A stretch of 64,000 nucleotides of DNA from Eubacterium sp. (GTDB lineage: Bacteria; Bacillota; Clostridia; Christensenellales; CAG-314), in assembly GCA_963653425.1 (NCBI GenBank), contig CAVJWC010000005.1, positions 937 through 64,936 of the forward strand, in the 5' to 3' direction. The notes beneath the pieces were generated by a model that was not told the origin of the DNA, searched no databases, and worked only from the letters and a program-made list of their open reading frames with translations. The translations under genes were made by a program, and so were the position numbers. Below, piece by piece: positions 6,224-64,000 of the stretch (its first letter is position 1; the number at the start of each line of letters is the position of its first letter).

Positions 6224-6247
6224 GCAAAGAAGCCTACCTTCCTTATT

Positions 6248-6273
6248 CTTCTTTCTTCGTGAGAAGAAAGAAG
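6248..6273. terminator. H-family hairpin acting as a probable bidirectional terminator
   Basis: cttctttcttc-gtga-gaagaaagaag (11-bp stem) between two convergent stop codons (6223 and 6287). The same unit recurs at about 53120-53150. Confidence 0.6.
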
Positions 6274-14595: not shown

Positions 14596-14759
14596 ATTTC
14601 AATATAAATTTCATAAAAGACGAGTAAGCTTAAAGGTAAGTTTATAAAAGACGAAGTAAGCTGAAAACGAATTTCCGTAAAAACGGAATAAATCACGAAC
14701 AGCAACGGCAGGACCGTTTACTGTATAAATTTTTTTCACATTTCTTTAAGGAGGAACTC

Positions 14760-20924: not shown

Positions 20925-21420
20925 GTGCTTTCTTTTTCCCCTACTTTCTTCAGAGAAGAAAGCAGGCAAAGACCGGCGTGACGCCGGACCCATTGTAGCT
21001 TCGCAAGACTATACAATTCTGTAGCCGAATGTTTTCCGTTCTTTCCTGAAAGAAAGAACCAAAGAACTTTCGGCTTTTTTGCAAAAAAGCCTACCAAAAA
21101 ACCTCAATGTTTGACATAATGAAAGTTTCTTCGCTTACTTTCTTTTTGCAAAGCTCGCATTACCTCGGCGGATACGCGAAGCTCAATGAAAGTTTCTTTG
21201 CCTTCTTTCTTTTCGAAAGAAAGAAGGTTTCTTCGCAGAAGAAAGTAGGAAGCGGTCGCCACAAGTTTCTTTGCCTACTTTTCATAAAGTTCGCATTACA
21301 TTAACGGTTACGCGAAGCTCAATGAAAGTTTCTTTGCTTACTTTCTTTTCTTAAAGAAAGTAAGATTCGGCATTTATCGAAGAAAAGCGAGTAAAAGCGA
21401 CTTCTTTGCGCTTACGACTT
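20925..21420. repeat. H-family palindromic mosaic repeat, locus 3
   Basis: Chain of CTTTCTT...AAGAAAG hairpins. Positions 20966-21106 are the reverse complement of 52972-53115 at roughly 90 percent identity by eye. Internal direct duplication of aagctcgcattac...gcgaagctcaatgaaagtttctttgc. Confidence 0.7.
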
Positions 21421-26500: not shown

Positions 26501-26791
26501 TGCCTTCCCTTCTTTCTTCTGCGAAGAAAGAAGCAAAGACGCACCTACTTTCTTTAGAAAAGAAAGTAGGCAAAGAAACTTTCACCGTGGGGGCATTGAA
26601 AGACAACAGGCAGTCCGTTAACAAAAAAAGTCTGTAACTAAGGGGAAAGTATCAATTCTTAATAAAGTTTATTCAGAACGACGCCTTTCCCCACAATGAA
26701 GTTCTTTGTGCAACTTTCTCGAAAGAAAGTTGCAAGTTCTTTGGTACTTTCTTTCAAGAAAGTACGAAAACACACGAAAAGAGATTGATAT
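26501..26791. repeat. H-family palindromic mosaic repeat, locus 4 (inside the glycolytic operon)
   Basis: cttctttcttc-tgc-gaagaaagaag, ctactttcttt-aga-aaagaaagtag, gcaaagaaactttcaccgtggg, core gtatcaattcttaataaa, gttgcaagttctttgg, gtactttctttcaagaaagtac. Confidence 0.7.
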
Positions 26792-45130: not shown

Positions 45131-45600
45131 CCTTCTTTGCTTGCTTTCGCAGTTCTTTCTTGAAAGAAAGAACCAAAGAACTACCGTTCTTTGCCTTCCT
45201 TATCCTTCTTTCTTCTGCGAAGAAAGAAGCAAAGACGCACCCACTTTCTTTGGAAAAGAAAGTGGGCAAAGAAACTTTCACCGTGGGTGTAAAGTGAAAC
45301 AATATGCAGTCCGCTTTTGGTAGAACCGTGCGAACCTTAACTGCGTGACAGTATCAATTCTTAATAAACCTCATTCAGAACGGCACATTCATCAATATTG
45401 AAGTTCTTTGTTGAGCTTTCCCCTTTAACTTACTTTTTTTAAGAAAAGAAAGTAAGCAAAGAAACTTTCTTTGTTTCTTACATTGAGGTTTTTTGCGCAG
45501 CTTTTTCCCAAAAAAGCTGCAAGTTCTTTGGTTCTTTCTTTCAAGAAAGAACAAGGAAGCCGGCAAAGTTTCTTTGCTGCTTTCTTTTCAAAGAAAGCAG
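45131..45600. repeat. H-family palindromic mosaic repeat, locus 5
   Basis: gttctttcttgaaagaaagaac, cttctttcttctgcgaagaaagaag, ccactttctttggaaaagaaagtgg, core gtatcaattcttaataaa. Positions 45480-45552 match 52975-53045 (cattgaggttttttgcgcagctttttcccaaaaaagctgcaagttctttggttctttctttcaagaaagaac). Confidence 0.7.
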
Positions 45601-51250: not shown

Positions 51251-52645
51251 ATGGAACTTAAAATATACAATACTCTGACCAGAACCAAGGAAGTTTTCCG
51301 TCCGGTCAAAGAAGGTCAGGCGGGTATCTATTCCTGCGGACCTACGGTTTATAAATACGCTCATATCGGCAACCTCAGGACTTACGTTTTTATGGATTTA
51401 CTCGTCCGTATTTTAAGATACGGCGGATATAAAGTAAAAAGCGTTATGAACATAACAGACGTCGGACATCTTTTAAGCGACGGCGACGAAGGCGAAGACA
51501 AGATGGAACGTTCGGCGCGCGAACAGAAAAAGACTCCGCGCGAAATTGCCGACGAAATAACCGCAGTATTTTTTGACGACCTCAAAAAGCTTAACATAGT
51601 AAGACCTACCGTTACCCCCAAAGCCACCGACAATATCCCCGAGATGATAGAGATAGTAAAAGTTCTTCTCGAAAAGGGATACGGTTACGAAATAGACGAC
51701 GGTATCTACTACGACGTAAGCAAGTTCAAGAACTACGGACAGCTCTCGGGCATAAGTCTCGAAGACCAGAAAGCAGGCGCACGCGTCGAAGTCAACAGCC
51801 AGAAGCGCAATCCCGCCGACTTCGCTCTCTGGAAGAAAGCCGAACCCAACCACATCATGCAGTGGGAAAGCCCGTGGGGTATGGGTTACCCCGGCTGGCA
51901 CATCGAATGTACCGCCATGTCCCTCAAATACCTCGGCACGCCCTTCGATATTCACACGGGCGGAGTCGACCATATTCCCATTCACCACGAGAACGAAATC
52001 GCTCAGGGCGAAGCTTACACCGGTCACAAGAACACTAATTACTGGATGCACAGCGAATTTATGCTCTTCGACGGCGGTAAAATGAGTAAAAGTCTGGGTA
52101 ACTGCTACACCGTTTCCGAACTTCAGGAAAAAGGTTACAGCCCCATGGTCTTCCGTTACTTCTGCCTCAACGCTCAGTACCGTCAGAAACTCAACTTCAC
52201 CTTCGCAGGCATGGATTCCGCTAAAAAATCGTTCGAAAGACTTCAGGAAACCCTCGCTAAACACCGCGATTCTTCCGCCTCTACGGACAAAGACAAACTC
52301 GAAACCTATAAGCGCGAATTTATCGAAGCCATAAGCGACGACCTTAACGTTCCCATGGCTCTCGGCGTGCTTTGGAAACTCGTTAAAGAACCCAAGTCCC
52401 ACGACGTTTACGAACTCGCTCTCGAAATGGACAAAGTCTTCGGTTTAAGCCTCGATTCCCTTCCAGAAATCAAACCCGCAACCGACGACAAACCTTCCGA
52501 CGAAGCCGTTGCCGTAGCCACCGAAAGACTCTCCGCAAGAAAAGCCAAAAACTGGGCGGAAAGCGACCGCCTCCGCGAAGTCCTTAAAGAAATGGGCTAC
52601 GCCGTCAAAGATAAACCCGACGGCTTCGAACTTACGAAAATCTAA
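51251..52645 (+). CDS. cysS: cysteine--tRNA ligase
   Basis: HIGNLR (HIGH) and KMSKS signatures. Zn-ligand context CGPTVY. Confidence 0.97.
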   Translation: MELKIYNTLTRTKEVFRPVKEGQAGIYSCGPTVYKYAHIGNLRTYVFMDLLVRILRYGGYKVKSVMNITDVGHLLSDGDEGEDKMERSAREQKKTPREIADEITAVFFDDLKKLNIVRPTVTPKATDNIPEMIEIVKVLLEKGYGYEIDDGIYYDVSKFKNYGQLSGISLEDQKAGARVEVNSQKRNPADFALWKKAEPNHIMQWESPWGMGYPGWHIECTAMSLKYLGTPFDIHTGGVDHIPIHHENEIAQGEAYTGHKNTNYWMHSEFMLFDGGKMSKSLGNCYTVSELQEKGYSPMVFRYFCLNAQYRQKLNFTFAGMDSAKKSFERLQETLAKHRDSSASTDKDKLETYKREFIEAISDDLNVPMALGVLWKLVKEPKSHDVYELALEMDKVFGLSLDSLPEIKPATDDKPSDEAVAVATERLSARKAKNWAESDRLREVLKEMGYAVKDKPDGFELTKI

Positions 52646-52649
52646 GTTT

Positions 52650-53185
52650 TCTTTTTCCTGCTTTCTTTTACAAAGAAAGCAGCAAAGAAACTTTGCTGTT
52701 TCCTTACCTTCTTTCTTTGGAAAAGAAAGTAGGCAAAGAAACTTTCATCGAGCTTTGCATAGCCGTTAGTGTAGTGCGAGTTTATCTTCTTTCTTCTGCG
52801 AAGAACCTACTTTCTTTGGAAAAGAAAGTAGGCAAAGAAACTTTCACCGTGGGTGTAAAGAAAAGCTAAACGCAGTCCGTATATAAAAAGAAAGTCTGTA
52901 ATCATAGAATTACCTATGGTTACAGACTTTTTCTTTTATATCGAGGTTCTTTTAGTTACTGACTTGCTCCCAATATTGAGGTTTTTTGCGCAGCTTTTTC
53001 CCAAAAAAGCTGCAAGTTCTTTGGTTCTTTCTTTCAAGAAAGAACGTAAAATATTCGGCTACCGAATTGTATAATCTTGCGAAGCTACAATGGGTCCGGC
53101 GTCACGCCGGTCTTTGGTTCTTTCTTCGTGAGAAGAAAGAAGGAAAAAAAGAAGGCTTGCTTCTTTCTCGCAAGAAAGAAGGAAA
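52650..53185. repeat. H-family palindromic mosaic repeat, locus 6 (most complete)
   Basis: Contains nearly all H modules: gctttcttttacaaagaaagc, ctactttctttggaaaagaaagtag x2, gcaaagaaactttcaccgtgggtgtaaag, gcagctttttcccaaaaaagctgc, gttctttctttcaagaaagaac, ccggcgtcacgccgg, ttctttcttcgtgagaagaaagaa. Confidence 0.7.
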
Positions 53186-53210
53186 GGCATCGCTATGCGA
53201 TAGCGATGCC
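53186..53210 (-). terminator. perfect palindrome overlapping the stop of the last module gene
   Basis: ggcatcgctat-gcg-atagcgatgcc (11-bp stem). On the minus strand it is followed by the T-rich tttccttctttctt. It encodes the C-terminal GIAIA. Confidence 0.5.
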
Positions 53211-54401
53211 TGTTAAGAAGAATTCACCGCCCGAGATTACGGCGCAGTTACCGTCGGAGAATCTGAGGACGCAGTCGGCGTCCATAGATTTTACGGTGCC
53301 GACGATTTTGGGCGCGGGGGACAGGGCGAGTTCCGAGCGCATAATCATACCGCTTGACCCTTTGTGGTAGAGGTAGAATTTTCCGTTATCGTAAAAACTC
53401 AGAGGTTTTTTGACGGGGAGGGAAGCAAGCGAGCCGATTTGAAGGGCGTAACTGCCGTTTGAAGAGGTTAAAGAGAGGGTAAAAGCGTAAGTTCCGCCGA
53501 GAGCTTCCGTAAGGCAAAGTGCTTGATTTCCGAAGGTGTGAGCGTGAACGATATCAGCCGAGCTTCCCGGAGGAAGAACGACCTCAGACCGTTCGCCGAG
53601 GGAGAATGTTCCGCCGCTAAGGGAGAGCGCGCGGGCATAGAGCTTGCCGCCGGCAACGTAGAGAACGAAGGAGGTTTTCTGCGTTTCGAAGGTAACTACA
53701 GCGTGGCTCGAAGCGGAAAAGTCCGACGTAAAAGTCACCGTTTGGGAAGTCGTGGCGGTTTCTGTGGGCGGAATGTCGAGTGAGAGAAGCCCGTTTTTCG
53801 AAAAGCCCGTAACGGGCAGGAACTTGGCTTTTTCTTGGTCGTAAATCTTGAAAAGTCGCGGATTCACGGCGTTTTTGTAGGTTTTAAGGACGGTTTCTTC
53901 TTCGTTTAGGAAGGATAACAATCCGTCCGAGTGAACGAGAAAGTAGTCGCATTCTTCGGCTGAAGTAAGCCCTATGTAGTGAGAGTCGGAGTTTTTGACC
54001 GCGCCGTAACCCGAAACTTCGAGCGTCATAACGGGAGAAAGAAAGCTCACAGAAAGCGGAGAAGAAATCTTTACGGAAACTTTACCGCCTCCCTTTACAG
54101 TGAACTTTCGTTGCAATTCTGTCGTTTGGTTTTGGCTGAGAGTCAGCTTTTCGGAAAGGAGCACCACGTTTCCCGAATATACGGTTAAAAAAGCCGTCGT
54201 TTCCGAAGAAGAGAGAAGCGAAAGGTTTAACGTCAGGTCGGTAGTGCCGTAAGAAACGAAGTTGAAGTCTGCCGTTTCGCCTTTTTTAAGGTTTTTTCTT
54301 ATAAAAAGCAGTTTGTTGCGTTTAAGAAGTTTCGTTTCGCCCGTTATACCGTTTTCGATAGCGCTTAAACGAGCCGAGAGTTCCGAAAGAAGCGTTTTCA
54401 T
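53193..54401 (-). CDS. unknown protein of the phage-derived module (possible fibre/spike-like)
   Basis: 402 aa. ATGA overlap with the upstream ORF. GGAGGA RBS. Short N-terminal helix (LLSELSARLSAIENGI) followed by beta-rich Ser/Thr-rich sequence. No family recognised. Confidence 0.65.
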   Translation of the reverse strand: MKTLLSELSARLSAIENGITGETKLLKRNKLLFIRKNLKKGETADFNFVSYGTTDLTLNLSLLSSSETTAFLTVYSGNVVLLSEKLTLSQNQTTELQRKFTVKGGGKVSVKISSPLSVSFLSPVMTLEVSGYGAVKNSDSHYIGLTSAEECDYFLVHSDGLLSFLNEEETVLKTYKNAVNPRLFKIYDQEKAKFLPVTGFSKNGLLSLDIPPTETATTSQTVTFTSDFSASSHAVVTFETQKTSFVLYVAGGKLYARALSLSGGTFSLGERSEVVLPPGSSADIVHAHTFGNQALCLTEALGGTYAFTLSLTSSNGSYALQIGSLASLPVKKPLSFYDNGKFYLYHKGSSGMIMRSELALSPAPKIVGTVKSMDADCVLRFSDGNCAVISGGEFFLTGIAIA

Positions 54402-55675
54402 AATGCGTCCTCCGTAAGAGGCGTAACGTTGCCCGCGATGCTTGTAAGAGAGGAAGTCGGATTGTATTTTGCTTTTACCGAAAGGGTAAAACTACTGCCC
54501 GCGACGTTTGCGGGGAGAACGACGGGTCTTTTTCCGTCGGAGTTGACGGTCTGCGTAAATCCGCCCCCTTCGCTTCCCGAAAGCGTAACCGTAAATTCGC
54601 CCTTTACAACCAAACTCAGATAGTTGAGTCTTTTTCGGGTGTGAGGCGCGTTGAAGTCGGTAACGACGGCGTATTCCGCTTCGTATTCGCTTCCCGCGGC
54701 GTTAAGTTCTACCTGCCCGTACTGCCCGTCCTGCGTGAGAACGATTATTCTGTCGGCGCTGTCGCTATAAATCAGGTCTTTTACGGAAAGAGAGCCAAGT
54801 TCGGACAGATAGTCGTTTTCGGTTGAGTAAAGATAAACCTTTCCGTCGCAGATAACTATATCTTCACCGCGGGAAGCCGTCTTTGCGTTTTCGGAAAATT
54901 CGAAGGAAAAGACTTTGGTCAGGGAGTCTCCGCTTACTTTATACAGTCCGTTTTCCGCCGTAAAATAAAGGCTTTCCTTTACCCTGCAAATCGACGAAAC
55001 CGATATTCCTCTCAGTCGGCAGAGCGGAGTAAGCGTTTCTCCGACTTTGAAAACCGCCGAACTACCGAAAGCGTAAAGCCCGTATCCTGCGGTTTCGAGT
55101 TTAGCGAGAACGCCCGTTTCGCCCGTTTCCGTAAGCGTTTTTTCCGTCGTGTTCCATTCGCAAACGTCCGTGGTTTCCGTCGTAAGAACGCCCGAACTCT
55201 CGGGTTTAAGTCCGAAAGTCTTGTTTTTAGCCTGAATAACGTCCGTAAGGCAGACCGACGGAAGAGCTATATACGGCTCGCTCGGCGAAAACCAGATAAC
55301 CGAAGAGTCCCCCGTTTTTTCCGTAAACAGCAAAACCGCGGGTTTTCCGTTATAGCTTATCTCGCGCGCCTTCGGGACTTCCGAAAAACTTACGCCCGTT
55401 CCTATGAATCCCATAGAACTCACCGAGCTGTAAGTAAGAGAAAAACTCTGCGTTATCCCCAAAAGGTATTTGCCGAAAGCAAAAAGCTTTTTAAGGTTCA
55501 GCGAGTCCGTATAATCCGAAGTCGAGCCCTGAAACTTCAGAGCCGTGACCTTTGCCGACGGACGGACTTTTCCGCGCCTGCGCATTCCCCTGCAGACGGT
55601 AACTTCCGTGCCTTTTTCGGGTTTGGAACCAAGTCCCGCCGAAAAATCCGTGATAACTTTTAGTCCGCCGTTCAT
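54398..55675 (-). CDS. unknown protein of the phage-derived module
   Basis: 425 aa. ATGA overlap at both ends. GGAGGA RBS. Beta-rich with recurring LY..xxxGxxY motifs. No family recognised. Confidence 0.65.
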   Translation of the reverse strand: MNGGLKVITDFSAGLGSKPEKGTEVTVCRGMRRRGKVRPSAKVTALKFQGSTSDYTDSLNLKKLFAFGKYLLGITQSFSLTYSSVSSMGFIGTGVSFSEVPKAREISYNGKPAVLLFTEKTGDSSVIWFSPSEPYIALPSVCLTDVIQAKNKTFGLKPESSGVLTTETTDVCEWNTTEKTLTETGETGVLAKLETAGYGLYAFGSSAVFKVGETLTPLCRLRGISVSSICRVKESLYFTAENGLYKVSGDSLTKVFSFEFSENAKTASRGEDIVICDGKVYLYSTENDYLSELGSLSVKDLIYSDSADRIIVLTQDGQYGQVELNAAGSEYEAEYAVVTDFNAPHTRKRLNYLSLVVKGEFTVTLSGSEGGGFTQTVNSDGKRPVVLPANVAGSSFTLSVKAKYNPTSSLTSIAGNVTPLTEDAL

Positions 55676-56220
55676 TTCCGTCCTCCGTAACTTATCGGCA
55701 TAGGTCTCAGTCTTCTTCCCGAAAAAGACGCGCCTAAGGCTTCGAGATATTTCTTGTCAAAGAACTGCGCCTTGTCCGAAAGACCCGCTCTTACCGAGTA
55801 TTCCGAAGCCGTTTTCATAGCGAGAGCGTTAACCGTTACGCTCGGCGGAAGAACTACCTCCCCGTCAAAAGCCACCGACTTCGGTATATAAGAGTAAGTG
55901 AAAACCACTTCCCCGGGAGAAGTCCTGATTTTGTCGGGGTAAACGTCGAAAATTTCGCGTCCCCTTACCGAATAGACCGAAACGGGTTCAAAAATGGCTT
56001 CGTCAAGCGTTTTGTACGCAATATCGCCGTCCTTCGTTTCCATCGTCTGCGTTTTGTAAAGCCTTATCCGCCTCGTGGAAGCGTCGGTTATAGCCGAGTT
56101 CGCGCAGTCCGTAAGCGACAAAAGCAAATCGTCCGTTACGGTCTCCGCGGAAAACCTGTCCTCGTCTACAGGTAAATTAAGCAGCTTCATAGCCTGCCTG
56201 ACTATATCTTTTAATTTCAT
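55672..56220 (-). CDS. unknown protein following the capsid gene (position fits a head-completion/adaptor protein)
   Basis: Start moved from 56379 to ATG 56220 (MKLKDIV), 6 nt after AAGGAG. The longer ORF N-terminus is a translation of H-repeat DNA. Confidence 0.6.
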   Translation of the reverse strand: MKLKDIVRQAMKLLNLPVDEDRFSAETVTDDLLLSLTDCANSAITDASTRRIRLYKTQTMETKDGDIAYKTLDEAIFEPVSVYSVRGREIFDVYPDKIRTSPGEVVFTYSYIPKSVAFDGEVVLPPSVTVNALAMKTASEYSVRAGLSDKAQFFDKKYLEALGASFSGRRLRPMPISYGGRK

Positions 56221-56224
56221 ATTA

Positions 56225-56505
56225 TCTCCTTGTTTCCTTGTCCTTCTTTCTTCTGCGAAGAAAGAAGCAAAGACGCACCTTCTTTCTTTCGAAAAGAAAG
56301 AAGGCAAAGAAACTTTCATTGCGGGTGCAATATAGAGCTGAGCGCTTTTCGTATCCGTAAGAAAGTCTGTAATCGGCAAAAGTACCGATTCTTAATAAAA
56401 CTTTTGGGGAAAGATAACTTTCCCCTATATTGAAGTTCTTTATGTAGCTTTCCTCGGAAAGCTACGAGTTCTTTGGTTCTTTCTTTCAAGAAAGAACGAA
56501 AAGAA
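56225..56505. repeat. H-family palindromic mosaic repeat, locus 7 (inside the phage-derived module)
   Basis: cttctttcttctgcgaagaaagaag, cttctttctttcgaaaagaaagaag, gcaaagaaactttca, core gtaccgattcttaataaaa, tattgaagttctttatg, gttctttctttcaagaaagaac. Confidence 0.7.
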
Positions 56506-56507
56506 GT

Positions 56508-57671
56508 TTAATCTTCGGTAATACCCGTGAGCATAGCCTGACCTCTGGGACGGTTACATATGAGTTCGCAATATTTTACGAGGGTAGCGGTATAGACGGG
56601 CTGACCTGCTTTTTGTTTAAGGATTTTGCCGTCTTCGCCTTCGAGCCATCTCCAATCGCAGAGCTGGTGGAGGGTAAAGTCGTCGGTATTGAGGATAAAC
56701 ATAGTGCCTGCGGGGCAGAATCTGTCGGCTACGACGGGTATTCCGTCGAACATAATTGCTCTGAATCCGTCCACGGTTTTGATTTCGTAGGGAATGGCGT
56801 TGTCGGTGAGGTAGTTTTCGAGGCTTCGTTTTACGCCGAGGGAGCAAACGATGAAGTTGGACTTACTGCCCGAGTCGCGTTCCACGGTATCGATAGCCTT
56901 TCTCATAGAGGAGAGGGAGATGGTGCCGTTGACGTTTTCGGTGTAAGGTTTAACCCAGCTGTTGGAAGCTCTGGTTATGCCGTAAAGGGAAGCTGAGTTC
57001 CCGAAAATGGCTTTAAGACCCGTAATTTCCATATCTTTGCTGTTCTGAACGTAGACTTTGTCGGTGTTTTTGAGCGTTCCGAGTTCTGCGCCCGAGAGGT
57101 TGATAACCACGTTTCCGGAAGAATCTTTGCCGATGCTTTCGATAGAGCGCCCGGTAGCCACGGCGGAGTTTCCGTCGTAAATATCCACGAGCATTCCTTC
57201 GAAGAAGTACATTCCGGAATTTACGGATACGGCGTTTTTGGTGTTGGTAATGACGGTTGCAAGCGCGCCCGTGCCGTCGCCGTAAAGCATTCTCGCGAAG
57301 TTCATGGAGCTTGCGGATATAAGGCTTTCCATTTCGGAAGAAAGAAGGTTAACGAACGCGCCTTCGGAGTTTTCGGAAGCTCTTATGGCTTTGTCGGTGA
57401 TTTCTATCGTTCCGTAAAGGTTTTTAAGGGTAGCTTCGAAACAGGCGTATTTGTTTCCCACGGCGGAAGGCAGATTGCCCGTTTCGGAACCCGCGCCTAC
57501 GCCTCCGTTGACTCCGTAAGGCACGAGCTTTTTGATGGTGTTGCCGTAAACGTTGTTGGTGGACTGTCTGATTTTTGCGAGCAGAGGATTTACGGAAGTG
57601 TTGAGCTGGTTGGTAACAGCGGTAAGATAAATGTTTTTAAGGGCTTTGTCTGCAGTGGTAAGACTGATCAT
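56508..57671 (-). CDS. phage major capsid protein (HK97-fold, P22-coat-like family by recollection)
   Basis: 387 aa. AAGGAG RBS. The N-terminus ALKNIYLTAVTNQLNTSVNPLLAKIRQ... and the size and position after portal and scaffold fit a major capsid protein. Confidence 0.78.
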   Translation of the reverse strand: MISLTTADKALKNIYLTAVTNQLNTSVNPLLAKIRQSTNNVYGNTIKKLVPYGVNGGVGAGSETGNLPSAVGNKYACFEATLKNLYGTIEITDKAIRASENSEGAFVNLLSSEMESLISASSMNFARMLYGDGTGALATVITNTKNAVSVNSGMYFFEGMLVDIYDGNSAVATGRSIESIGKDSSGNVVINLSGAELGTLKNTDKVYVQNSKDMEITGLKAIFGNSASLYGITRASNSWVKPYTENVNGTISLSSMRKAIDTVERDSGSKSNFIVCSLGVKRSLENYLTDNAIPYEIKTVDGFRAIMFDGIPVVADRFCPAGTMFILNTDDFTLHQLCDWRWLEGEDGKILKQKAGQPVYTATLVKYCELICNRPRGQAMLTGITED

Positions 57672-57739
57672 AATATCTCCTTATAAATAAAGTAGTTTAA
57701 TTTGGCGTGTTTTGAGTGAATTTGTTGTTTGCTTAAAGC

Positions 57740-57935
57740 GATAACGAACGAACCGTCCGTCTTTCCGAACGAACCGTCTGTTAAGTTTGCAGTAAATTCG
57801 GTTTTTTGTTTAGCGGAACGAAAGAAAGTCCGTCCTTCGTAACGCAAGGTTTTGTCTTTCGCAACACAAGGTTTTGTTTTTCGTAACGAACCGTCCGTCT
57901 TTCGTAGCGCAATGTTTTGCTATTCGGAAAGAAAA
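57740..57935. repeat. degenerate tandem/direct repeats in the scaffold-capsid spacer
   Basis: gaacgaaccgtccgtctttc at about 57745 and 57884. cgcaaggttttgtctttcg / cacaaggttttgtttttcg adjacent pair. Confidence 0.45.
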
Positions 57936-57938
57936 GCT

Positions 57939-58421
57939 CTATCTTTCCGAATGAAAAAGAAAACCGCGTGCGATTTCCGTCGCTTCGTCTATGGTTTTGG
58001 GCTTTTTGGGCGGTGCGGGAACGAAAGCTCCGCTTGCTCCCGAAAGAACTTTGGGCGGAAGGTTATTGGCTTTTTCGACGTATCTGTCGATAATGTCGGT
58101 TATGAGCTTTCCGAGGCGTTCTCTTTCCGAGGCGGAGAACTCTCTTCCGCCGTCGCTTTTGTCGTTTTGGGTTTCCTGCGCTTCGTCGTTTTCGTTCCGT
58201 CGTGCGTTTTCGTTTCGGGAAACTCCTTCGTTTCCGTTCCGGAATGCCTTTTCCTCTTGCGCTAAGACTGCGTTTTCGGAATCCGCCCTTTCAAAGGTTT
58301 CGTTTTTCGCCGTTGCGTTATCCTTTTCAAAGGAAGTTTCCGCAATATCGGTTTCCGCGGAAAAAGCCGTTAAGTTCTCGGCGTTTTTGCCCGCTATAAA
58401 GTCGTTTTTGTCCTTAGTCAT
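57939..58421 (-). CDS. acidic low-complexity protein, putative scaffolding protein
   Basis: 160 aa, rich in E/N/A/K. The ATG directly follows the portal TAA, and the GGAGGT RBS lies inside the portal 3-prime end. The portal-to-capsid position is typical for a scaffold. Confidence 0.5.
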   Translation of the reverse strand: MTKDKNDFIAGKNAENLTAFSAETDIAETSFEKDNATAKNETFERADSENAVLAQEEKAFRNGNEGVSRNENARRNENDEAQETQNDKSDGGREFSASERERLGKLITDIIDRYVEKANNLPPKVLSGASGAFVPAPPKKPKTIDEATEIARGFLFHSER

Positions 58422-59975
58422 TTATACCTCCGTGTTTTGTATAAGGGAACCCAGTCCCATAGTTTCGAGAAGTTTGTTTTTGGTAGCGAGAGAAACCTTT
58501 CCGTCTTCGCCGTTAAGAAGTCCCGAATTAAAGATTTCGAGGGCTATGCTTATCATTCTTACGGGCGCGGAATTTCCTTCGCTTTCGGTGATTATGCTGA
58601 AATCCTCTTCGCAGTCTTCGTTTCCGTGCGCGGAAGCTTCGTTATAATCTGCGTGTGCGTCGTTTTTGTTTGCGTTCGGGGCGTTTTCCTTGTCCTTTGG
58701 CGCGAACTGAGCGTAAAGAGATATGATTTTGCCTGCGATTTCGCGGGTTGCGCCGTTTATGGAGTCGGACGAAACGGAAATTCTCGAATCGTCCTGTTCG
58801 AGAAGCAGGTTAAGAGCCGTTCCGCTGGTTACTCTTACGGGCGAAGAATTGCGCATAAAGTCGCTTACTCCGCTTATAACCGAAAACTCTTTGAGAATGC
58901 GTTCTTCTTCGGATATAAAGTCGGAAGGAAGTTTATCCGTCGTCATAAAGGACGGAACCGTCGAACCTTGCCTGTATACGAGGATTTTCCCGGGGTAAAG
59001 CCCTTCTTCTTCGAGTTCGTCAACGTTGACCGAACCGTCTTCCACCGCGAGAATACCGCCCGCAAGTCTCGAAAGCAGTTCGTGTTTCTTGTTTTTAACG
59101 TCGTTGTAGGCTCTTTGAAGGGGAATAAGTCTTTCTATCACGCTCGTTCCGAAGAAACTGCCTGCCATAGGCAGAGAAACCTGCCTTACGAAGGGGAAAA
59201 AGAACTTCTTTCCTTTTTTGTAGGGCAGAGGTCCGAGATAGAGAAGCTTGTCTCCCGCTACGATGATAAGTCTTCCCAAGGGGTATTCGCCCGTAGGCTT
59301 TTCGTACTTTTCTATCACCGTAGCCGAGTCTTCGAGATTCTCTTCGCTTTTTTTAACTGCCGAAGAAAGCGAAAAGGCTTGCAGTTTTTCGGGTTTCACC
59401 TCTTCGTTCCATATGCGTTTGATTTCGGCTACGGGCAGGACTCTCGCGTGGATTATCGAACGGCATTCTTCCACGTCGTTTCTTTGAAGGGAGTCGGGAT
59501 ATATCTCGAAGGGCGGACATACGGAAATTTCAGCGTTTCCCGAACCCGAATCCTCTGCGTTCCATACGACTTTATAGAACGCCGTTCCCGTGACTTCGCT
59601 CCAAGCCGTGGCTTCCGAAATAATCCGTCTCATATCGTTCTTTTCAAAGACCGCGTTCACCAGTTTTTCGGCTTTCAGGGCGGAACTTCCCGATTTTTGC
59701 GAAATAGGTAGTATTTTTACGCTCGGACGGGTTCTTAAAAGCTTGGAGCTTCTCGTTTCCATAACGGGCGCAATGTGATTGAAGACTTCGCGGTGTTGCC
59801 AGAAAAAGGTTTTGTCAAAGCTCGTAAGAACGTTTTCGGGAGTAACCGAGCAGTACTGATTACCGTTTAGAAAGTTCATGTTGAGTTGCCAGCCGAGTTC
59901 TTTTTCGCGTCGGATTCTTTTTCGCCGTTCGAAGTCTTCCCTGATTTCGGCTACTGTCTGTTCGTAATATTTCAT
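58422..59975 (-). CDS. phage portal protein
   Basis: 517 aa. The N-terminus ...WQLNMNFLNGNQY... and overall size are characteristic of portal proteins. Lies between the terminase and the scaffold/capsid genes. Confidence 0.82.
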   Translation of the reverse strand: MKYYEQTVAEIREDFERRKRIRREKELGWQLNMNFLNGNQYCSVTPENVLTSFDKTFFWQHREVFNHIAPVMETRSSKLLRTRPSVKILPISQKSGSSALKAEKLVNAVFEKNDMRRIISEATAWSEVTGTAFYKVVWNAEDSGSGNAEISVCPPFEIYPDSLQRNDVEECRSIIHARVLPVAEIKRIWNEEVKPEKLQAFSLSSAVKKSEENLEDSATVIEKYEKPTGEYPLGRLIIVAGDKLLYLGPLPYKKGKKFFFPFVRQVSLPMAGSFFGTSVIERLIPLQRAYNDVKNKKHELLSRLAGGILAVEDGSVNVDELEEEGLYPGKILVYRQGSTVPSFMTTDKLPSDFISEEERILKEFSVISGVSDFMRNSSPVRVTSGTALNLLLEQDDSRISVSSDSINGATREIAGKIISLYAQFAPKDKENAPNANKNDAHADYNEASAHGNEDCEEDFSIITESEGNSAPVRMISIALEIFNSGLLNGEDGKVSLATKNKLLETMGLGSLIQNTEV

Positions 59976-60082
59976 TGGTTACCTCATTTTTGCTTTGTCC
60001 GTATAATACGCGTTTTTATACGGACGGGTAGTAATGTTTATCTTAACGGATTTGCAAATCTTAAGTTGTTTTAAGTCGTCGT

Positions 60083-60364
60083 TTAGTCTTCCTCGTCTTC
60101 CGTGCTTTCGAGACGGGAAAGAAGAATGCGCGCTTCTTTTTTGAGCTGGTTGTCGGACAGTAAAGAGTAGTCGGTTTTATTGAGGTCGCTTTCGAGAAGG
60201 AAACGCAACGCTCCGAGGTCGGGAGCGACGTCTTTGGATACGGTTTTCTTTTTCACGAGTTTAAGCTCTCCGTTTTCGTCCGCCGTATATTCCGAACTTA
60301 TCTCCTTTATCTTGAAGCCTACGGCTTTTTTGTAGATTGTCTGTATGAGTTTGTCGTCTTTCAT
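60083..60364 (-). CDS. small phage protein resembling the C-terminal part of terminase small subunits
   Basis: 93 aa. TAATG overlap with the TerL stop. ...KKKTVSKDVAPDLGALRFLLES... resembles the (V/L)PD..A..F.LKN segment of Firmicute-phage TerS proteins, recalled from memory and not searched. Confidence 0.4.
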   Translation of the reverse strand: MKDDKLIQTIYKKAVGFKIKEISSEYTADENGELKLVKKKTVSKDVAPDLGALRFLLESDLNKTDYSLLSDNQLKKEARILLSRLESTEDEED

Positions 60365-61800
60365 TATGGAAAAGTTGTCCGTCTGCTTTGCTTGATTTTG
60401 CCGTAAAGCCTGCTTTTATCGCGTTCCATATCGGTAGGCTCCGCGAGAGAGCGCGTTCCGCTCATAAGGTAATATCTCATCTCGTCCATAGCGTGATCGT
60501 CGCGTTTTACGGGCGAATCCCCCGAACCGTAGCGGTAATTCTTTATCTCGCGAATAAGGTTCACGCAGTTTTCCGCAATAAACAGTCTCGGCGTTCCGTC
60601 GGCGCTTCTCAGCATTGATTTGACTTTGTTTATTCCCGCAAAGGTGTCTTTGTTGACTTTGGGAATGACCCGAATTCCGTTTTCCGTGAAAAGCTCGGTA
60701 ACCGACTTTGCCGAAGAAAGCGTTTTCTGATTGGCTGCCGAGTCTATAAGAGCCTGAATTTTACCGTCCGCCGTTCTCTTCCAACGTAGTCCGTCGCTTA
60801 TTTCCCTGATTTTTCGGGCGTGATACTCTACGCTCTTTTCGGCTTCGTAATGTTCGGCAACCACGTAAACGTTGTCGTCGGCGTCGCGGGCGTACCAGTG
60901 GCAGGAAAGCGGATTTTTAAGCCCCGGATCTATGGAAAGTATGTCCTGCATGGAAGGTGGGGGCGTAAAAGGCTTGATTATATGAACTTCGGGCTGAAAT
61001 TCGGGGTAAACGAGACCTTCCTTACCGGCAAACCTTCCGTAACGCCTCGATTCGAGTTCTTCTTTGCTCATGGAAGCCGTCATTGCCCTGACTGCCTCTT
61101 TTGAAAGAAAGGGATTGTCCGCCCATTCCATAAAAATCGAAAAGACTTCGGGATCGCGCCTCGAATTCACGTAAATTCTGTCGTAAACCCACGTAAGTCC
61201 TTTTAACGGAGTCATCGTTCCGAAGATAATGCCGTTTCGGTCCAACAGGCGCATTCGGCATTCTTCGTAAATGTCGAGAGGAGGCTCTTCGTCGAACCAC
61301 ACGAAATCGAGATCCGCGCCCTGAAACTTCTCTCGCGACGATTCGCACGACTTGAACCCCAGTCTGGAAAGTCCGCCGAAATCGTTGCGGATAAGGAGGT
61401 AATCTATTATTCCGTATTCGGGAGAAGAAGCGTTGCCTTCCAGCATAACGACCTTTTCGATACGGCTCTTGTCGAGATAACGCAGAATCTTCTTTTGCGC
61501 CACGTCTCTCTGAACGGCAAGAGAAAGCGAAACCGACCAGCCCGAAAGATCGGGTTTATTCGGGCGGTAGGGGTGATTGCCCTGAAGGAGCCATACGCAT
61601 TCCACGGCACCGCATTCGGATTTTCCGCTTCTGTTTCCGCCGAAAACCCACCTGTTGCGCTTTTGGCTTTTATGGAACTCTATCTGTTTGTAGTGTTTTT
61701 TCGTTCTGTTATAGTTGAATAAAGGAAGTTTAAGCCGTCTGTCCATTTCGGAAAGAACGGCTTGCGCTTTGATTCTGTCGTCGTTTTGAGTGATGGTCAT
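60364..61800 (-). CDS. terL: phage terminase large subunit
   Basis: Walker A FGGNRSGKSE, Walker B DFVWFDEE, coupling TMTP, and nuclease motifs SIDPG and DDHAMDEMRYY. Start set at ATG 61800, since the ORF-track TTG at 61893 lies in tandem-repeat DNA. ATG 61746 is also possible. Confidence 0.88.
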   Translation of the reverse strand: MTITQNDDRIKAQAVLSEMDRRLKLPLFNYNRTKKHYKQIEFHKSQKRNRWVFGGNRSGKSECGAVECVWLLQGNHPYRPNKPDLSGWSVSLSLAVQRDVAQKKILRYLDKSRIEKVVMLEGNASSPEYGIIDYLLIRNDFGGLSRLGFKSCESSREKFQGADLDFVWFDEEPPLDIYEECRMRLLDRNGIIFGTMTPLKGLTWVYDRIYVNSRRDPEVFSIFMEWADNPFLSKEAVRAMTASMSKEELESRRYGRFAGKEGLVYPEFQPEVHIIKPFTPPPSMQDILSIDPGLKNPLSCHWYARDADDNVYVVAEHYEAEKSVEYHARKIREISDGLRWKRTADGKIQALIDSAANQKTLSSAKSVTELFTENGIRVIPKVNKDTFAGINKVKSMLRSADGTPRLFIAENCVNLIREIKNYRYGSGDSPVKRDDHAMDEMRYYLMSGTRSLAEPTDMERDKSRLYGKIKQSRRTTFP

Positions 61801-61859
61801 AACTAAATATTCGTCCTTTATAGAAAAGACGGTAAAAAGCGTTTTATTCGGCGAACTAA

Positions 61860-62160
61860 GCCTTTCGTTCAACGAAAAGAGATTTTCGTTCAATCAACCG
61901 AGCCTTTCGTTCAACGGGAACGGTATTTCGTTTAATAAGCAAAGCTTTTCGTTCGACAAGCAGGCTTTTTCGTTAAAAAAACAGGTCTTTTCGACGGTTA
62001 TCGTTAAAAGAAAACAAATCGCCCCATTTATCGGCTTTACCTTTCCTTTACAATAATCATAGGCATTCCGTTTTAATCATCGTGGCTTTTGAATTATCTT
62101 GGCTTTTGAATCAGCCGAGCCGTTGAGTCAGCCGAGCTTCCGAATAAACATGGCTTTTGA
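61860..62160. repeat. degenerate tandem repeats upstream of TerL
   Basis: (c)ttttcgttcaa(c) unit x6, then ggcttttgaat x3 and cagccgagc x2. Confidence 0.5.
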
Positions 62161-62299
62161 ATCGCCGTAATAAAGCTTTCCCGCAAGGCGGTTAATAGCG
62201 GAAGGGTTCGGTTGTCCTTTCCTGCCGTACGCGGTTTGGGCGATCGGCAGGAAGGAACCGAAAAGGAGGGGAAAATGCAAAAAGGAGAGCTTTTGCGTT

Positions 62300-62851
62300 A
62301 TGGATAAGAAATATGTGCCGATTGTGATTTCGGGAGTAATCGTCTGTCTGGCTGTCGCGCTTTTGGTTACAGGCGTTAAGTCCCGCAACACTGAAACTCA
62401 GGATAAGCCCGAAACTTTTGAAGAAGCTTGCTATATAGAGGGCGCGCCGTTCGTATGGATAAAGACCGACGGTGTGTTCCTTCTTTCGAGAACCAATTTC
62501 GGAAAGGCTTTCAGAATGATCGTTATCCCCAAAGGGAGCGTTATTTCGGCGGTGGAAGATTGCGGAAGGTATTTAAGAGTTTCCGTCGGGCAAGACTTCC
62601 TTGTGTACGGGTACGTCCTTAAATGCGACGTTTTTCTGCCCGAAGAGGGCGCAAAACCCTTTTATCCCACCGAATACGTGACCGTTTCGCCTCAGAGAGC
62701 CTGCCTTTGGAAGACTCCCGAAGACTTTTCGGAAGCAGTCGCCGTCGTTTACCGCGGAGATATTCTCGAATTCTACGGAGTGCTAAGCGAAATGTGCCTC
62801 GTCAGAAAGGGCGACCTTTTCGGGTACATAGACTCGGCGTTTATTCGCTAA
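62300..62851 (+). CDS. membrane-anchored protein with two SH3b-like domains
   Basis: N-terminal TM helix PIVISGVIVCLAVALLVTGV. Two segments end in ...LVYGYVLKCDV and ...GDLFGYIDSAFI, typical of bacterial SH3_3 domains. It is on the strand opposite to the surrounding module. Confidence 0.55.
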   Translation: MDKKYVPIVISGVIVCLAVALLVTGVKSRNTETQDKPETFEEACYIEGAPFVWIKTDGVFLLSRTNFGKAFRMIVIPKGSVISAVEDCGRYLRVSVGQDFLVYGYVLKCDVFLPEEGAKPFYPTEYVTVSPQRACLWKTPEDFSEAVAVVYRGDILEFYGVLSEMCLVRKGDLFGYIDSAFIR

Positions 62852-62975
62852 GACCTGCGTAGTCGTTTTTCGGAAAGACTTACCGAGTTTTGCTTTTCGG
62901 GGAATTTACCGTAAGCGTTTTTTCGGATAGAGTTATTTTAGTTGCTTTTCGGGCAGAACTGCGGTAAACGGTTTT

Positions 62976-63509
62976 TCAGGAAGATTTGCCACGGACGAGA
63001 CGGAGGGAGTTTTTGAGGTATTTTGCGTCTATGCCTATGGCGTAAAGATATTTCTGAAAGTCGACGAGAGCTTTTTGAAGGACGCCGATTGCGGACTTGC
63101 GGTTTTTGCCGAAAAGAGAAGAGATCCGTTTGAGGCTTTTACCCGAACAGAAATAATAAATCATCTTTCTTTGCGTTCCGGGAAGGGAACGAAGGGCGCA
63201 TTTTACCGCCGAACTCACTTCTTCCAGACGTTTTTTGATTTCCGAAGCCTTGACAATCTCTTTTATCGCGTCGTCCGTGGAGGTATGGTTGCCGTAAAAT
63301 CCGTGCGAACTTTCGGCAAGCGATCTTATTCCGAGGTCCAATTTTCTGCGGACGGAATTGCCGTTCACCGCAAAACTCAAAGCCCAGAGAGCTTCGTTGC
63401 ATTCGCTTGCGTCCGTGAGTTTCATATACATTTCCCTGTGCGCGTCCTCTATAATCGACGCAACGAGTGAATTTACGTTTATTCTATAATGACCGGTGTC
63501 GATTATCAT
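62976..63509 (-). CDS. sigma-70 region-4-like / ArpU-type phage transcriptional regulator
   Basis: Start moved to ATG 63509 behind AAGGAG. C-terminal LPGTQRKMIYYFCSGKSLKRISSLFGKNRKSAIGVLQKALVDFQKYL looks like a sigma region 4 HTH. It heads the module. Confidence 0.5.
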   Translation of the reverse strand: MIIDTGHYRINVNSLVASIIEDAHREMYMKLTDASECNEALWALSFAVNGNSVRRKLDLGIRSLAESSHGFYGNHTSTDDAIKEIVKASEIKKRLEEVSSAVKCALRSLPGTQRKMIYYFCSGKSLKRISSLFGKNRKSAIGVLQKALVDFQKYLYAIGIDAKYLKNSLRLVRGKSS

Positions 63510-63669: not shown

Positions 63670-63698
63670 TTGACAGAACGGGATTTATGTTATATAAT
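63670..63698 (+). promoter_or_regulatory. consensus sigma-A promoter
   Basis: TTGACA (63670-63675), exactly 17 nt, TATAAT (63693-63698). Confidence 0.65.
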
Positions 63699-63869: not shown

Positions 63870-64000
63870 ATGCCCTATTGGCAGGAAGAGAATAATAAAA
63901 ATCTCTCTGATCCGAACGAAAACGATTCCGTCAATTCCAAGGAAGGCGGAACGGATATATGGGGCGTCGTGTCGCAAGGCAGGCAGGAAAGTTCTTCTGC
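63870..64000 (+). CDS. 5-prime end of an unidentified CDS, truncated by the window
   Basis: ATG 63870, 7 nt after AAGGAG. Open to the window end (MPYWQEENNKNLSDPNENDS...). Too short to classify. Confidence 0.35.
   Translation, partial: MPYWQEENNKNLSDPNENDSVNSKEGGTDIWGVVSQGRQESSS

What the first reader, a model, noticed from the sequence alone, without database searches (positions are those of the whole stretch)
53193..63509. Tail-less, integrase-less phage head-assembly module wedged against cysS
The minus strand carries, in order, a sigma/ArpU-like regulator, TerL, a 93-aa TerS-like ORF, a portal, an acidic scaffold-like ORF and a major capsid. Three tightly coupled ORFs with no family I can recognise follow. 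I see no tape measure, tail tube or sheath, baseplate, holin or endolysin, integrase, or replication genes in these 10 kb or between the module and cysS. Gene junctions are translationally coupled: TAATG at 60364, TAA-ATG at 58421/58422, and ATGA at 55672-55675 and 54398-54401. Strong RBSs are retained, which argues for a maintained unit rather than simple prophage decay. The portal gene also shows the long codon-aligned antisense ORF (58437..59711) seen in host housekeeping genes, which suggests long residence in this genome. Possible readings are a capsid-forming satellite (cf-PICI-like), a GTA-like domesticated particle, or a minimal short-tailed phage with novel tail proteins.
Basis: partly seen in the sequence, partly recalled or inferred. 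Interest (0 to 1): 0.72.

Follow-up and report, generated by a model that had tools for sequence, protein, structure and literature searches.

The report
Domesticated short-tailed phage capsid gene cluster
This is an intact, host-adapted cluster of phage head, DNA-packaging and short-tail genes with no means to replicate, integrate or lyse; the same cluster is conserved in hundreds of gut Clostridia species, so it is most likely a gene-transfer-agent-like particle factory and not a dying prophage.

Summary
Window 53193-63509 (minus strand) carries a sigma-region-4-like regulator, TerL, a 93-aa TerS fragment, a P22-type portal, an acidic scaffold-like ORF, a podovirus-type major capsid protein and three coupled ORFs. 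All four stated gene junctions are exact. No integrase, replication, lysis or long-tail genes occur up to cysS or in the about 6 kb beyond the window end. "Tail-less" is only partly right. The 425-aa ORF belongs to a podovirus virion tail-hub family. The 182-aa ORF sits at the adaptor position. The 402-aa ORF belongs to a fast-evolving distal-protein family. The cluster is not unique: its capsid gene has relatives in at least 588 stretches of species-representative genomes, mostly Christensenellales-type Clostridia. In all 52 related loci with enough flanking sequence, the seven core genes are intact. Core genes show dN/dS of about 0.1, diverge in step with a neighbouring host gene, and use host codons. 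The best reading is a GTA-like domesticated podovirus module. The closest described system is FpGTA of Faecalibacterium, but homology to it could not be tested. Particle production and DNA transfer are inferred, not shown.

The parts
62976..63509 (-). Sigma-70 region-4-like / ArpU-like putative late-gene activator (177 aa)
   Evidence: Window protein: weak Sigma70_r4_2 hit (0.015) and TIGR02937 (5e-4). Family profile A5 hits region 4 of many PDB sigma factors (E 0.008-0.2). Present at this position in 47 of 52 related loci.
62300..62851 (+). 183-aa membrane protein with two SH3b-like domains, divergently placed between the regulator and TerL; a conserved neighbour of unknown role
   Evidence: Family consensus is signal peptide, two SH3b-like domains, acidic linker and C-terminal TM helix. 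The L091 orthologue has a weak Pfam SH3_3 hit. Present in 47 of 52 loci on the opposite strand.
63870..64000 (+). Start of an 824-aa low-complexity protein with four C-terminal TM helices (runs off the window); positional counterpart of the large surface protein upstream of the module in other lineages
   Evidence: L001/L088. TM prediction. No HMM similarity to the beta-propeller/SH3b/GW proteins found at this position elsewhere. A perfect sigma-70 promoter lies at 63670-63698 (+).
61852..61991 (-). Array of 21-nt phased ACGAAAR repeats directly upstream of TerL; candidate regulatory array, lineage-specific
   Evidence: The phased motif occurs only here and upstream of MCP in the window (4 matches, 0.23 expected).
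60364..61800 (-). Large terminase TerL (478 aa)
   Evidence: Terminase_6N/6C; phrog_2 2.4e-32. 57-75% identical to relatives. dN/dS 0.11 against L091.
60083..60364 (-). Minimal TerS-like protein (93 aa) matching only the C-terminal part of small-terminase profiles
   Evidence: 25 of 26 family members hit phrog_309 TerS (best 2e-7) and 14 hit phrog_23444. The window copy aligns to profile positions 195-243 of 319. Conserved motif KRKVTxKxVPPD..A.KLLLE.
58422..59975 (-). Portal protein, P22/SU10 type (517 aa)
   Evidence: P22_portal 3e-18, SU10_portal 2.3e-12; phrog_156 7.8e-42; dN/dS 0.09.
57939..58421 (-). Acidic scaffold-like protein (160 aa)
   Evidence: By position between portal and MCP. 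Family found in all 52 complete loci. No database family.
57832..57919 (-). 22-nt phased repeats (four copies) in the scaffold-MCP spacer
56508..57671 (-). Major capsid protein, podovirus type (387 aa)
   Evidence: NF033394 capsid_maj_Podo 1.7e-72; phrog_14242 3.8e-56. More than 6000 homologues in the word-index search. 726 50%-identity clusters at E<1e-30. dN/dS 0.10.
56221..56507 (-). MCP to next-gene spacer filled with host-type palindromic repeats/hairpins (terminator-like)
55672..56220 (-). 182-aa protein at the head-tail adaptor position (function inferred from position only)
   Evidence: Homologous family of about 184 aa present in 52 of 52 loci directly after MCP. Only isolated weak PHROG hits: head-tail adaptor in 1 member, virion structural protein in 2. 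AF2 model failed.
54398..55675 (-). 425-aa podovirus tail-hub/nozzle-family virion protein
   Evidence: In family A2, 18 of 29 members hit phrog_3287 virion structural protein (2.8e-14), 15 hit phrog_511 internal virion protein and 2 hit phrog_578 head closure Hc3. hhalign against the 'phage stabilization protein' of podovirus MW202803 gave Prob 96.9, E 2e-10. Weak PDB profile hits to SU10 (7z47_G) and to the crAss001 muzzle protein.
53193..54401 (-). 402-aa fast-evolving distal protein: N-terminal coiled-coil helix followed by a beta-rich body; candidate needle, fibre or receptor-binding part
   Evidence: Matches the HMM of the variable family that sits after the hub gene in 17 of the related loci examined (E 4.6e-5; alignment A4). 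No PHROG or Pfam hit.
53185..53211 (-). Strong intrinsic terminator closing the operon
   Evidence: 12-bp stem with 6 GC pairs plus a T-rich tail, overlapping the stop of the last gene.

Best explanation
The region is one copy of a widespread, chromosomally fixed, podovirus-derived head-neck-packaging module. It most likely works as a gene-transfer-agent-like system.

Proposed sequence of events:
1. The sigma-region-4-like protein switches on the operon.
2. Portal, scaffold and capsid protein build procapsids.
3. TerL, helped by a TerS reduced to its C-terminal segment and so probably without sequence-specific DNA binding, fills the procapsids with host DNA by the headful.
4. The 182-aa adaptor-position protein, the 425-aa hub/nozzle-family protein and the variable 402-aa distal protein close the portal and form a very short tail.

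The module cannot replicate, excise or lyse on its own. Release and adsorption functions must therefore come from elsewhere in the genome.

Shown here: gene identities, conservation, purifying selection, host-like composition, and the absence of mobility and lysis genes.
Inferred: expression, particle assembly, what DNA is packaged, and transfer.
For: Gene identities.

No integrase, replication, lysis or long-tail genes between cysS and at least 6 kb beyond the window end. No att-like direct repeats bracket the module.

The same gene order is found at other chromosomal sites in distant genomes. All seven core genes are intact in 52 of 52 loci with enough flank, and 50 are in the exact order.

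A survey of 118 flanking ORFs shows host genes and no recurrent integrase, lysis or tail family.

Against a relative sharing the same left flank (L091), dN/dS is 0.09-0.11 for TerL, portal and MCP, with saturated dS.

Divergence of MCP, TerL and portal tracks that of the adjacent host RNase J (Pearson 0.69-0.90).

Codon usage and GC match host genes (RSCU r 0.905; GC 0.489 for both). A host-wide palindromic repeat family has colonised an internal spacer.

The TerS family matches only the C-terminal part of TerS profiles. A TerS with no obvious DNA-binding domain is also described for FpGTA (PMC12946183).

That paper reports GTA-like packaging of 4-7 kb host DNA in Christensenellaceae MAGs, with no encoding locus reported for them.
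Against: There is no expression, particle or packaging data for this organism or this gene family.

No lysis or receptor-binding cluster was found in the 64 kb.

The DUF7934-type gene that closes the module in most relatives is absent here, so this copy could be incomplete.

The functions of the 182-aa and 402-aa proteins rest on position only. Both AF2 models failed.

The co-divergence statistics use non-independent species pairs.

Long-term conservation shows that the cluster is selected. It does not show that the selected function is gene transfer.
Confidence: 0.6

Rival explanations
1. Domesticated capsid with a function other than gene transfer. The conserved particle would package DNA for some other host benefit, such as DNA release, altruistic lysis, defence, or a stationary-phase or sporulation-linked process. 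Recipient delivery would not be the selected trait.
For: The same conservation and purifying-selection evidence applies and does not discriminate between functions. The linkage to SH3b/GW/beta-propeller surface proteins is conserved and unexplained. The hosts are spore formers (GerA and SpoVAC as neighbours).
Against: TerL, a TerS remnant, portal and a tail-hub protein are all retained. That is the full set for DNA packaging and ejection and fits delivery best. The variable distal protein looks like a part that interacts with a recipient.
Confidence: 0.15
2. Capsid-forming satellite or other mobile element (cf-PICI-like). It would make its own heads and borrow tails, replication or induction from a helper phage.
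For: It is a small cluster of regulator, terminase, portal and capsid. Similar clusters in other gut Clostridia have been likened to capsid-forming satellites (PMC13371034). A few relatives lie next to prophage genes with large serine recombinases.
Against: There is no integrase, primase/replicase or excisionase within about 10 kb in the window lineage or in the annotated relatives. None recurs in 118 flanking ORFs. No flanking direct repeats were found. The locus is stable, with saturated synonymous divergence and a shared flank. The module carries its own hub-family gene rather than siphovirus-type connectors. In L132 the recombinases sit on the far side of the module together with Mtd-type tail-fibre genes, which fits a neighbouring prophage.
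Confidence: 0.1
3. Cryptic prophage remnant with no current function, kept only by chance.
For: It lacks most phage functions. This copy lacks the terminal DUF7934 gene. Large non-coding spacers with repeats have grown inside it.
Against: Every gene is intact with a ribosome-binding site and coupled junctions. dN/dS is about 0.1. The seven core genes are intact in 52 of 52 species loci. Near-identical strains keep all ORFs open.
Confidence: 0.08
4. One segment of a still-autonomous phage whose remaining genes (replication, lysis, tailspike, integrase) lie elsewhere or beyond the sampled flanks.
For: Only about 6 kb beyond the window end could be read. Gene order resembles the P22-type late operon, in which ejection, tailspike and lysis genes follow or sit apart.
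Against: Both flanks are housekeeping genes in this lineage and in others. The nearest phages in the GenBank phage collection share 30% MCP identity or less. No IMG/VR contig shows the module inside a complete phage genome.
Confidence: 0.07

Closest known systems
FpGTA of Faecalibacterium prausnitzii (Borodovich et al., Nat Commun 2026, PMC12946183)
   Same: A roughly 10 kb chromosomal operon of about ten genes in a gut Clostridia member: TerL, a TerS with no obvious DNA-binding domain, portal, scaffold, podovirus-type capsid, then hypothetical proteins that include a tail nozzle. It has no replication or integration genes. Particles look tail-less or very short-tailed.
   Different: The host order differs. 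The FpGTA capsid is named N4-gp56 family by NCBI, whereas this one matches NF033394 capsid_maj_Podo and shows no N4-gp56 hit. TerS lies upstream of TerL in FpGTA and between TerL and portal here. FpGTA has a second operon with fibres, holin and endolysin, and none was found in this window. This family has a conserved sigma-like regulator and divergent SH3b surface-protein genes. Sequence homology could not be tested because no FpGTA sequences were reachable.
RcGTA-type gene transfer agents of Alphaproteobacteria
   Same: A domesticated, vertically inherited head-packaging cluster under purifying selection. It has a dedicated transcriptional activator next to or acting on the cluster. Its TerS lacks the usual DNA-binding specificity. 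It cannot package itself. (These RcGTA properties are from general knowledge of the literature and from the introduction of PMC12946183.)
   Different: RcGTA is siphovirus-like, with tape-measure and tail-tube genes, and is unrelated in sequence. Its regulation by host signalling is known, whereas nothing is known here.
P22-like / SU10-like podovirus late operons
   Same: P22-type portal, podovirus capsid family, and the gene order terminase, portal, scaffold, capsid, adaptor, hub, distal protein. The hub family is related to a podovirus 'phage stabilization protein'.
   Different: No detectable similarity to P22 gp4, gp10 or gp26 themselves. There are no ejection proteins, tailspike, lysis, immunity, integrase or replication genes. 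The nearest phages in the GenBank phage collection share 30% MCP identity or less.
Capsid-forming PICIs (cf-PICI)
   Same: A small chromosomal island encoding its own terminase, portal and capsid.
   Different: cf-PICIs carry integrase, replication and regulatory modules, excise on induction, and use helper tails. None of these features was found here.

Membership tests
Gene transfer agent (general definition) | Phage-derived structural/packaging cluster in the chromosome, without replication, integration or excision genes | tested here: met
Gene transfer agent (general definition) | Maintained by selection and inherited vertically within a host clade | tested here: met
   dN/dS about 0.1 with a shared flank. 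Co-divergence with host RNase J. Intact in 52 of 52 species loci. Host-like codon usage. The pairs are not independent, so this is supportive and not a formal test.
Gene transfer agent (general definition) | Small terminase lacking sequence-specific DNA recognition | tested here: inconclusive
   The 93-aa protein matches only positions 195-243 of a 319-position TerS profile.
Gene transfer agent (general definition) | Particles package near-random host DNA in pieces too small to carry the whole cluster | not testable with these tools
   Needs VLP DNA sequencing. There is only indirect context: 4-7 kb GTA-like packaging in Christensenellaceae MAGs.
Gene transfer agent (general definition) | Delivery of packaged DNA to recipient cells | not testable with these tools
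   Needs an experiment.
FpGTA (Faecalibacterium) | Operon I content and order (TerS, TerL, portal, scaffold, MCP, hypotheticals including a nozzle) | tested here: met
   Same set of genes. The TerS position differs.
FpGTA (Faecalibacterium) | Sequence homology to FpGTA proteins (e.g. RCH50849.1, RCH50851.1) | not testable with these tools
The different NCBI family names of the capsid proteins argue against close orthology.
FpGTA (Faecalibacterium) | Second operon with fibre, receptor-binding, holin and endolysin genes elsewhere in the genome | tested here: inconclusive
   None in the 64-kb window by inspection. The rest of the genome was not available.
Capsid-forming PICI / phage satellite | Integrase and flanking att repeats | tested here: not met
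Capsid-forming PICI / phage satellite | Own replication module (primase/replicase) and repressor | tested here: not met
P22-like/SU10-like podovirus prophage | P22-type portal and podovirus-type capsid protein | tested here: met
P22-like/SU10-like podovirus prophage | Complete virion and life-cycle gene set (ejection proteins, tailspike, lysis, immunity, integrase, replication) | tested here: not met
Decaying prophage remnant | Pseudogenes, truncated genes and patchy presence among relatives | tested here: not met

The most novel reading that the evidence does not exclude
This gene family is the so-far unidentified, order-wide gene transfer agent of Christensenellales-type gut Clostridia. It would be a podovirus-derived particle, domesticated separately from the FpGTA lineage, that accounts for the GTA-like packaging of 4-7 kb host DNA seen in Christensenellaceae MAGs. 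Its conserved partners would be a sigma-like activator and SH3b/beta-propeller surface proteins, acting as its regulatory and release or adsorption parts.
Probability: 0.4. Interest if true: 0.78.

Novelty: new member of a known kind. Interest (0 to 1): 0.6.

Why it matters
GTA-like packaging has been reported as the most common way bacterial DNA enters virus-like particles in the human gut. So far a gene cluster has been assigned only in Faecalibacterium. For Christensenellaceae, packaging was seen but no locus was reported (PMC12946183).

This finding, followed into related genomes, gives a concrete and testable candidate locus. It is conserved across at least several hundred species-level genomes of a gut lineage. 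It has a defined core of seven genes, a candidate activator and a candidate non-specific TerS.

If confirmed, three things would follow:
- The host range of known GTAs would widen.
- There would be a second podovirus-type example.
- Annotators would have a marker set that stops these loci being called "incomplete prophages".

Tried and rejected
- **Homologue searches for the 425-aa ORF.** A single-sequence search in the large protein database returned only itself. A profile search returned just 7 proteins, so no deep alignment could be built.
- **Structure prediction.** AF2 on the 425-aa ORF with an 8-sequence alignment gave pLDDT 36.6. AF2 on the 182-aa ORF alone gave 36.3. Both are unusable, so no fold search was run.
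- **Comparison with P22.** hhalign of the three tail-side families against P22 gp4, gp10 and gp26 gave no similarity. The 182-aa and 402-aa families also showed no similarity to the neighbours of the hub gene in podovirus MW202803.
- **PDB sequence and profile searches.** Searches for the MCP, the adaptor-position family and the bridging podovirus protein found nothing significant.
- **Direct comparison with FpGTA.** This was not possible.
- **Long IMG/VR contigs.** I considered that these might show the module inside real phages. The extra genes turned out to be host genes, restriction systems, and a neighbouring prophage with two serine recombinases and an Mtd-type fibre.
- **The 177-aa protein as TerS.** I considered this, by analogy with FpGTA, where TerS is upstream of TerL. 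I rejected it for three reasons: its helix-turn-helix lies in the C-terminal half, as in sigma/ArpU proteins; an oppositely oriented gene separates it from TerL; and the 93-aa family carries the TerS signal.
- **Direct repeats as att sites.** Those shared between the module and the cysS spacer were rejected as att sites. They belong to a genome-wide palindromic repeat family, and one copy is internal to the module.

Full report
**1. What is in the window**

On the minus strand between 63509 and 53193 lie nine co-oriented ORFs, with one oppositely oriented ORF among them. Family scans identify:
- TerL: Terminase_6N 4.8e-13, Terminase_6C 4.2e-9, phrog_2 2.4e-32.
- A P22/SU10-type portal: P22_portal 3e-18, phrog_156 7.8e-42.
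- A podovirus-type major capsid protein: phrog_14242 3.8e-56; NCBIfam NF033394 capsid_maj_Podo 1.7e-72, well above its cut-off.

The first ORF has weak sigma-70 region-4 hits. A profile of its family hits region 4 of many solved sigma factors (E 0.008-0.2), so "sigma/ArpU-like regulator" is reasonable but not proven.

A strong terminator (53211-53185) closes the operon.

Two start codons need correction, judged from gene calls in identical contigs and from relatives: TerL starts at ATG 61800 (478 aa), and the first unknown ORF starts at ATG 56220 (182 aa).

**2. What lies around it**

Downstream are cysS and serS, convergent with the module. The rest of the window is ordinary chromosome: thrS, pgk, tpi, gpmI, adk, map, mfd, ECF transporter genes, truA, minD and gerA (assigned by eye).

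The window's own contig could be followed further in an identical Logan contig (L001) and in a 99.6% identical NCBI contig (L088, GCA_963637745.1). Beyond 64000 come an 824-aa low-complexity membrane protein on the other strand, a 147-aa membrane protein, a TSCPD protein, small ORFs, an esterase and Ham1.

There is no integrase, replication, lysis or tail gene. No direct repeats bracket the module.

**3. The module is a family, not a one-off**

The capsid protein has more than 6000 homologues at 55-60% identity in the word-index search, many on contigs of 100-500 kb. A profile search of 1.84 billion cluster representatives finds 726 clusters at E<1e-30.

The best 80 are almost all MAGs labelled Clostridia, Christensenellaceae, Christensenella, Catabacter, Borkfalkia, Fimimonas, Gallimonas or Scatosoma.

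I built HMMs for each window protein and mapped them on these loci. The layout repeats as follows:
- a large surface protein, on the opposite strand
- the regulator
- an SH3b membrane protein, on the opposite strand
- TerL, the small ORF, portal, scaffold, MCP
- the roughly 184-aa protein, then the roughly 425-aa protein
- in 17 of the loci, a variable protein of 290-400 aa
- a Lys/Glu-rich protein (Pfam DUF7934, 6.3e-31)
- host genes

Among the 52 species loci with enough flank, all 52 have the seven core genes as open frames, and 50 have them in exactly this order. 47 have the regulator and the SH3b gene.

The host genes on the flanks differ between lineages: RNase J, IspG-PolC-RimP-NusA, HTS-SmpB-RNase R, SSB and GH43. 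A survey of 118 flanking ORFs shows no recurrent integrase, lysis or tail family.

**4. Evidence for long residence and selection**

A relative with 76% MCP identity (L091) has the same left flank, made of TSCPD, a 143-aa protein and an 820-aa protein. Between it and the window, synonymous sites are saturated (dS 1.7-2.9). dN/dS is 0.11 for TerL, 0.09 for portal, 0.10 for MCP and 0.16 for the regulator. The flanking host proteins are 32-77% identical.

In 11 species that share RNase J next to the module, pairwise identity of MCP, TerL and portal correlates with that of RNase J (Pearson 0.69, 0.90, 0.87). The MCP is at least as conserved as RNase J. The pairs are not independent.

Codon usage of the module matches host housekeeping genes: RSCU r 0.905, against 0.955 between two halves of the host set. 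GC is 0.489 in both.

A palindromic repeat family that is scattered through intergenic regions of this genome (21 matches, 0.01 expected) also fills the spacer between MCP and the next gene.

Near-identical strains keep all frames open. One has a 25-codon insertion in the 425-aa gene.

**5. The three "unknown" ORFs and the small ORF**

*The 93-aa family.* 25 of 26 members hit small-terminase phrog_309 (best 2e-7), and 14 hit phrog_23444. The window copy aligns only to profile positions 195-243 of 319. It is therefore a TerS reduced to its C-terminal part.

*The 425-aa family.* 18 of 29 members hit phrog_3287 (virion structural protein, 2.8e-14), 15 hit phrog_511 (internal virion protein) and 2 hit phrog_578 (head closure Hc3, which is the name carried by P22 gp10 in its record). 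One member matches the "phage stabilization protein" of uncultured podoviruses by tblastn. The family profile aligns to that protein with probability 96.9% and E 2e-10 over 145 columns. In that podovirus the gene sits in the same place in the order terminase, small ORF, portal, scaffold, capsid. A PDB profile search gave only weak top hits, to a phage SU10 protein and to the crAss001 muzzle protein. I read this ORF as the tail hub or nozzle.

*The 182-aa family.* It is universal, directly after the capsid gene, but has only isolated weak PHROG hits. "Adaptor" is inferred from position.

*The 402-aa ORF.* It has no BLAST relatives. It does match the HMM of the variable family that follows the hub gene in 17 of the related loci (E 4.6e-5). 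It shares that family's layout: an N-terminal coiled-coil helix, a beta-sandwich-like middle and a beta-rich end. Its rapid divergence fits a distal, surface-interacting part, but nothing more can be said.

"Tail-less" is therefore overstated. The module most likely encodes a minimal short tail.

**6. What could not be done**

Both structure predictions failed for lack of admissible homologues.

P22 gp4, gp10 and gp26 show no detectable similarity to the three families.

The terminal DUF7934 gene is absent from the window, and no lysis or fibre cluster is present in the 64 kb.

Long IMG/VR contigs that contain the module do not show it inside a complete phage. In L132, two large serine recombinases and an Mtd-type fibre gene lie upstream of TerL, while serA-, serC- and RNase J-type host genes follow the module directly. 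This fits a neighbouring prophage.

**7. Comparison with what is known**

The closest described system is FpGTA of Faecalibacterium prausnitzii (PMC12946183). Its main features are:
- a 10.5-kb operon with a TerS lacking an obvious DNA-binding domain, TerL, portal, scaffold, capsid and hypotheticals that include a nozzle
- 40-nm particles without visible tails, carrying 8.4-8.9 kb of host DNA
- a second operon with fibres and lysis genes

The same paper reports GTA-like packaging in Christensenellaceae MAGs (HGM11616, 4.1 and 7.1 kb peaks; QANA01, 6.3 kb) and does not report an encoding locus for them.

No paper in the searchable library describes the present family. A 2026 preprint lists similar candidate clusters in other gut Clostridia.

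Whether this family is homologous to FpGTA could not be tested. The FpGTA capsid is named N4-gp56 family, whereas this one matches capsid_maj_Podo with no N4-gp56 hit. That suggests a different lineage (inference).

**8. Verdict**

I put 0.6 on a functional, selected, GTA-like particle system. I file it as a new member of a known kind. Interest is moderate to high because it offers a concrete candidate locus for unexplained GTA-like packaging in a large gut lineage.

Expression, particles, packaged DNA and transfer remain to be shown.

Noticed in passing
window 6202-6270, 20944-21360, 26512-26762, 45155-45597, 52661-53139, 56246-56494: A genome-wide family of short palindromic intergenic repeats (CTTTCTT, 2-8 nt, AAGAAAG, often inside longer 50-80-nt shared units). 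There are 21 matches against 0.01 expected. They cluster in intergenic regions, including one spacer inside the capsid module. They look like REP/MITE-type elements and also produce the odd Lys/Arg/Phe-rich spurious ORFs.
   Followed up: partly
window 61852-61991 and 57832-57919 (minus strand): Phased repeats of 21-22 nt with the core ACGAAAR lie directly upstream of TerL and of the capsid gene, and nowhere else in the 64 kb (4 matches against 0.23 expected). The long spacers that hold them are absent in relatives (L091, L002), so they are specific to this lineage. Their role, regulatory or not, is unknown.
   Followed up: partly
window 63670-63698 (+): A perfect sigma-70 consensus promoter (TTGACA, 17 nt, TATAAT) lies about 170 nt upstream of the 824-aa membrane-protein gene. 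It points away from the module's regulator gene.
   Followed up: no
L132 3376-6515; L140 5906-9065: In some relatives, a pair of large serine recombinases (510-536 aa) sits directly upstream of TerL (L132, confirmed by Pfam). In L140, ORFs of the same size sit directly upstream of the capsid gene, and TerL to scaffold are missing from the held sequence. This suggests a prophage inserted next to or into the module.
   Followed up: partly
related loci, e.g. L002 1714-4260 (-), L005 899-3520 (-), L040 1969-3840 (-): The module is almost always preceded, on the opposite strand, by a 550-950-aa secreted and membrane-anchored protein with beta-propeller (DUF5050-like) and SH3b/GW cell-wall-binding domains. 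A smaller SH3b paralogue lies between the regulator and TerL. The reason for this conserved linkage is unknown. In the window lineage the large protein is replaced by an unrelated 824-aa protein.
   Followed up: partly
L015 14315-15241 and 55 of the related loci; absent from the window: The last gene of the module in most relatives is a Lys/Glu-rich coiled-coil protein matching Pfam DUF7934 (6.3e-31). It may correspond to the abundant 'TolA'-annotated protein found in FpGTA particle preparations. The window's copy of the module lacks it.
   Followed up: partly
L089 2280-3632: A 99%-identical strain (GCA_963616125.1) has a 25-codon in-frame insertion near the end of the 425-aa hub gene. This points to fast length variation in the tail-side genes, even between strains.
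   Followed up: partly
window 14736-20759 (-), 51473-52402 (-), 58437-59711 (+) and others: Long open frames antisense to real genes are common throughout this genome. One example is a 2007-aa frame opposite a 2035-aa surface-protein gene. The antisense ORF opposite the portal is therefore a property of the genome's codon usage and not a feature of the module.
   Followed up: partly
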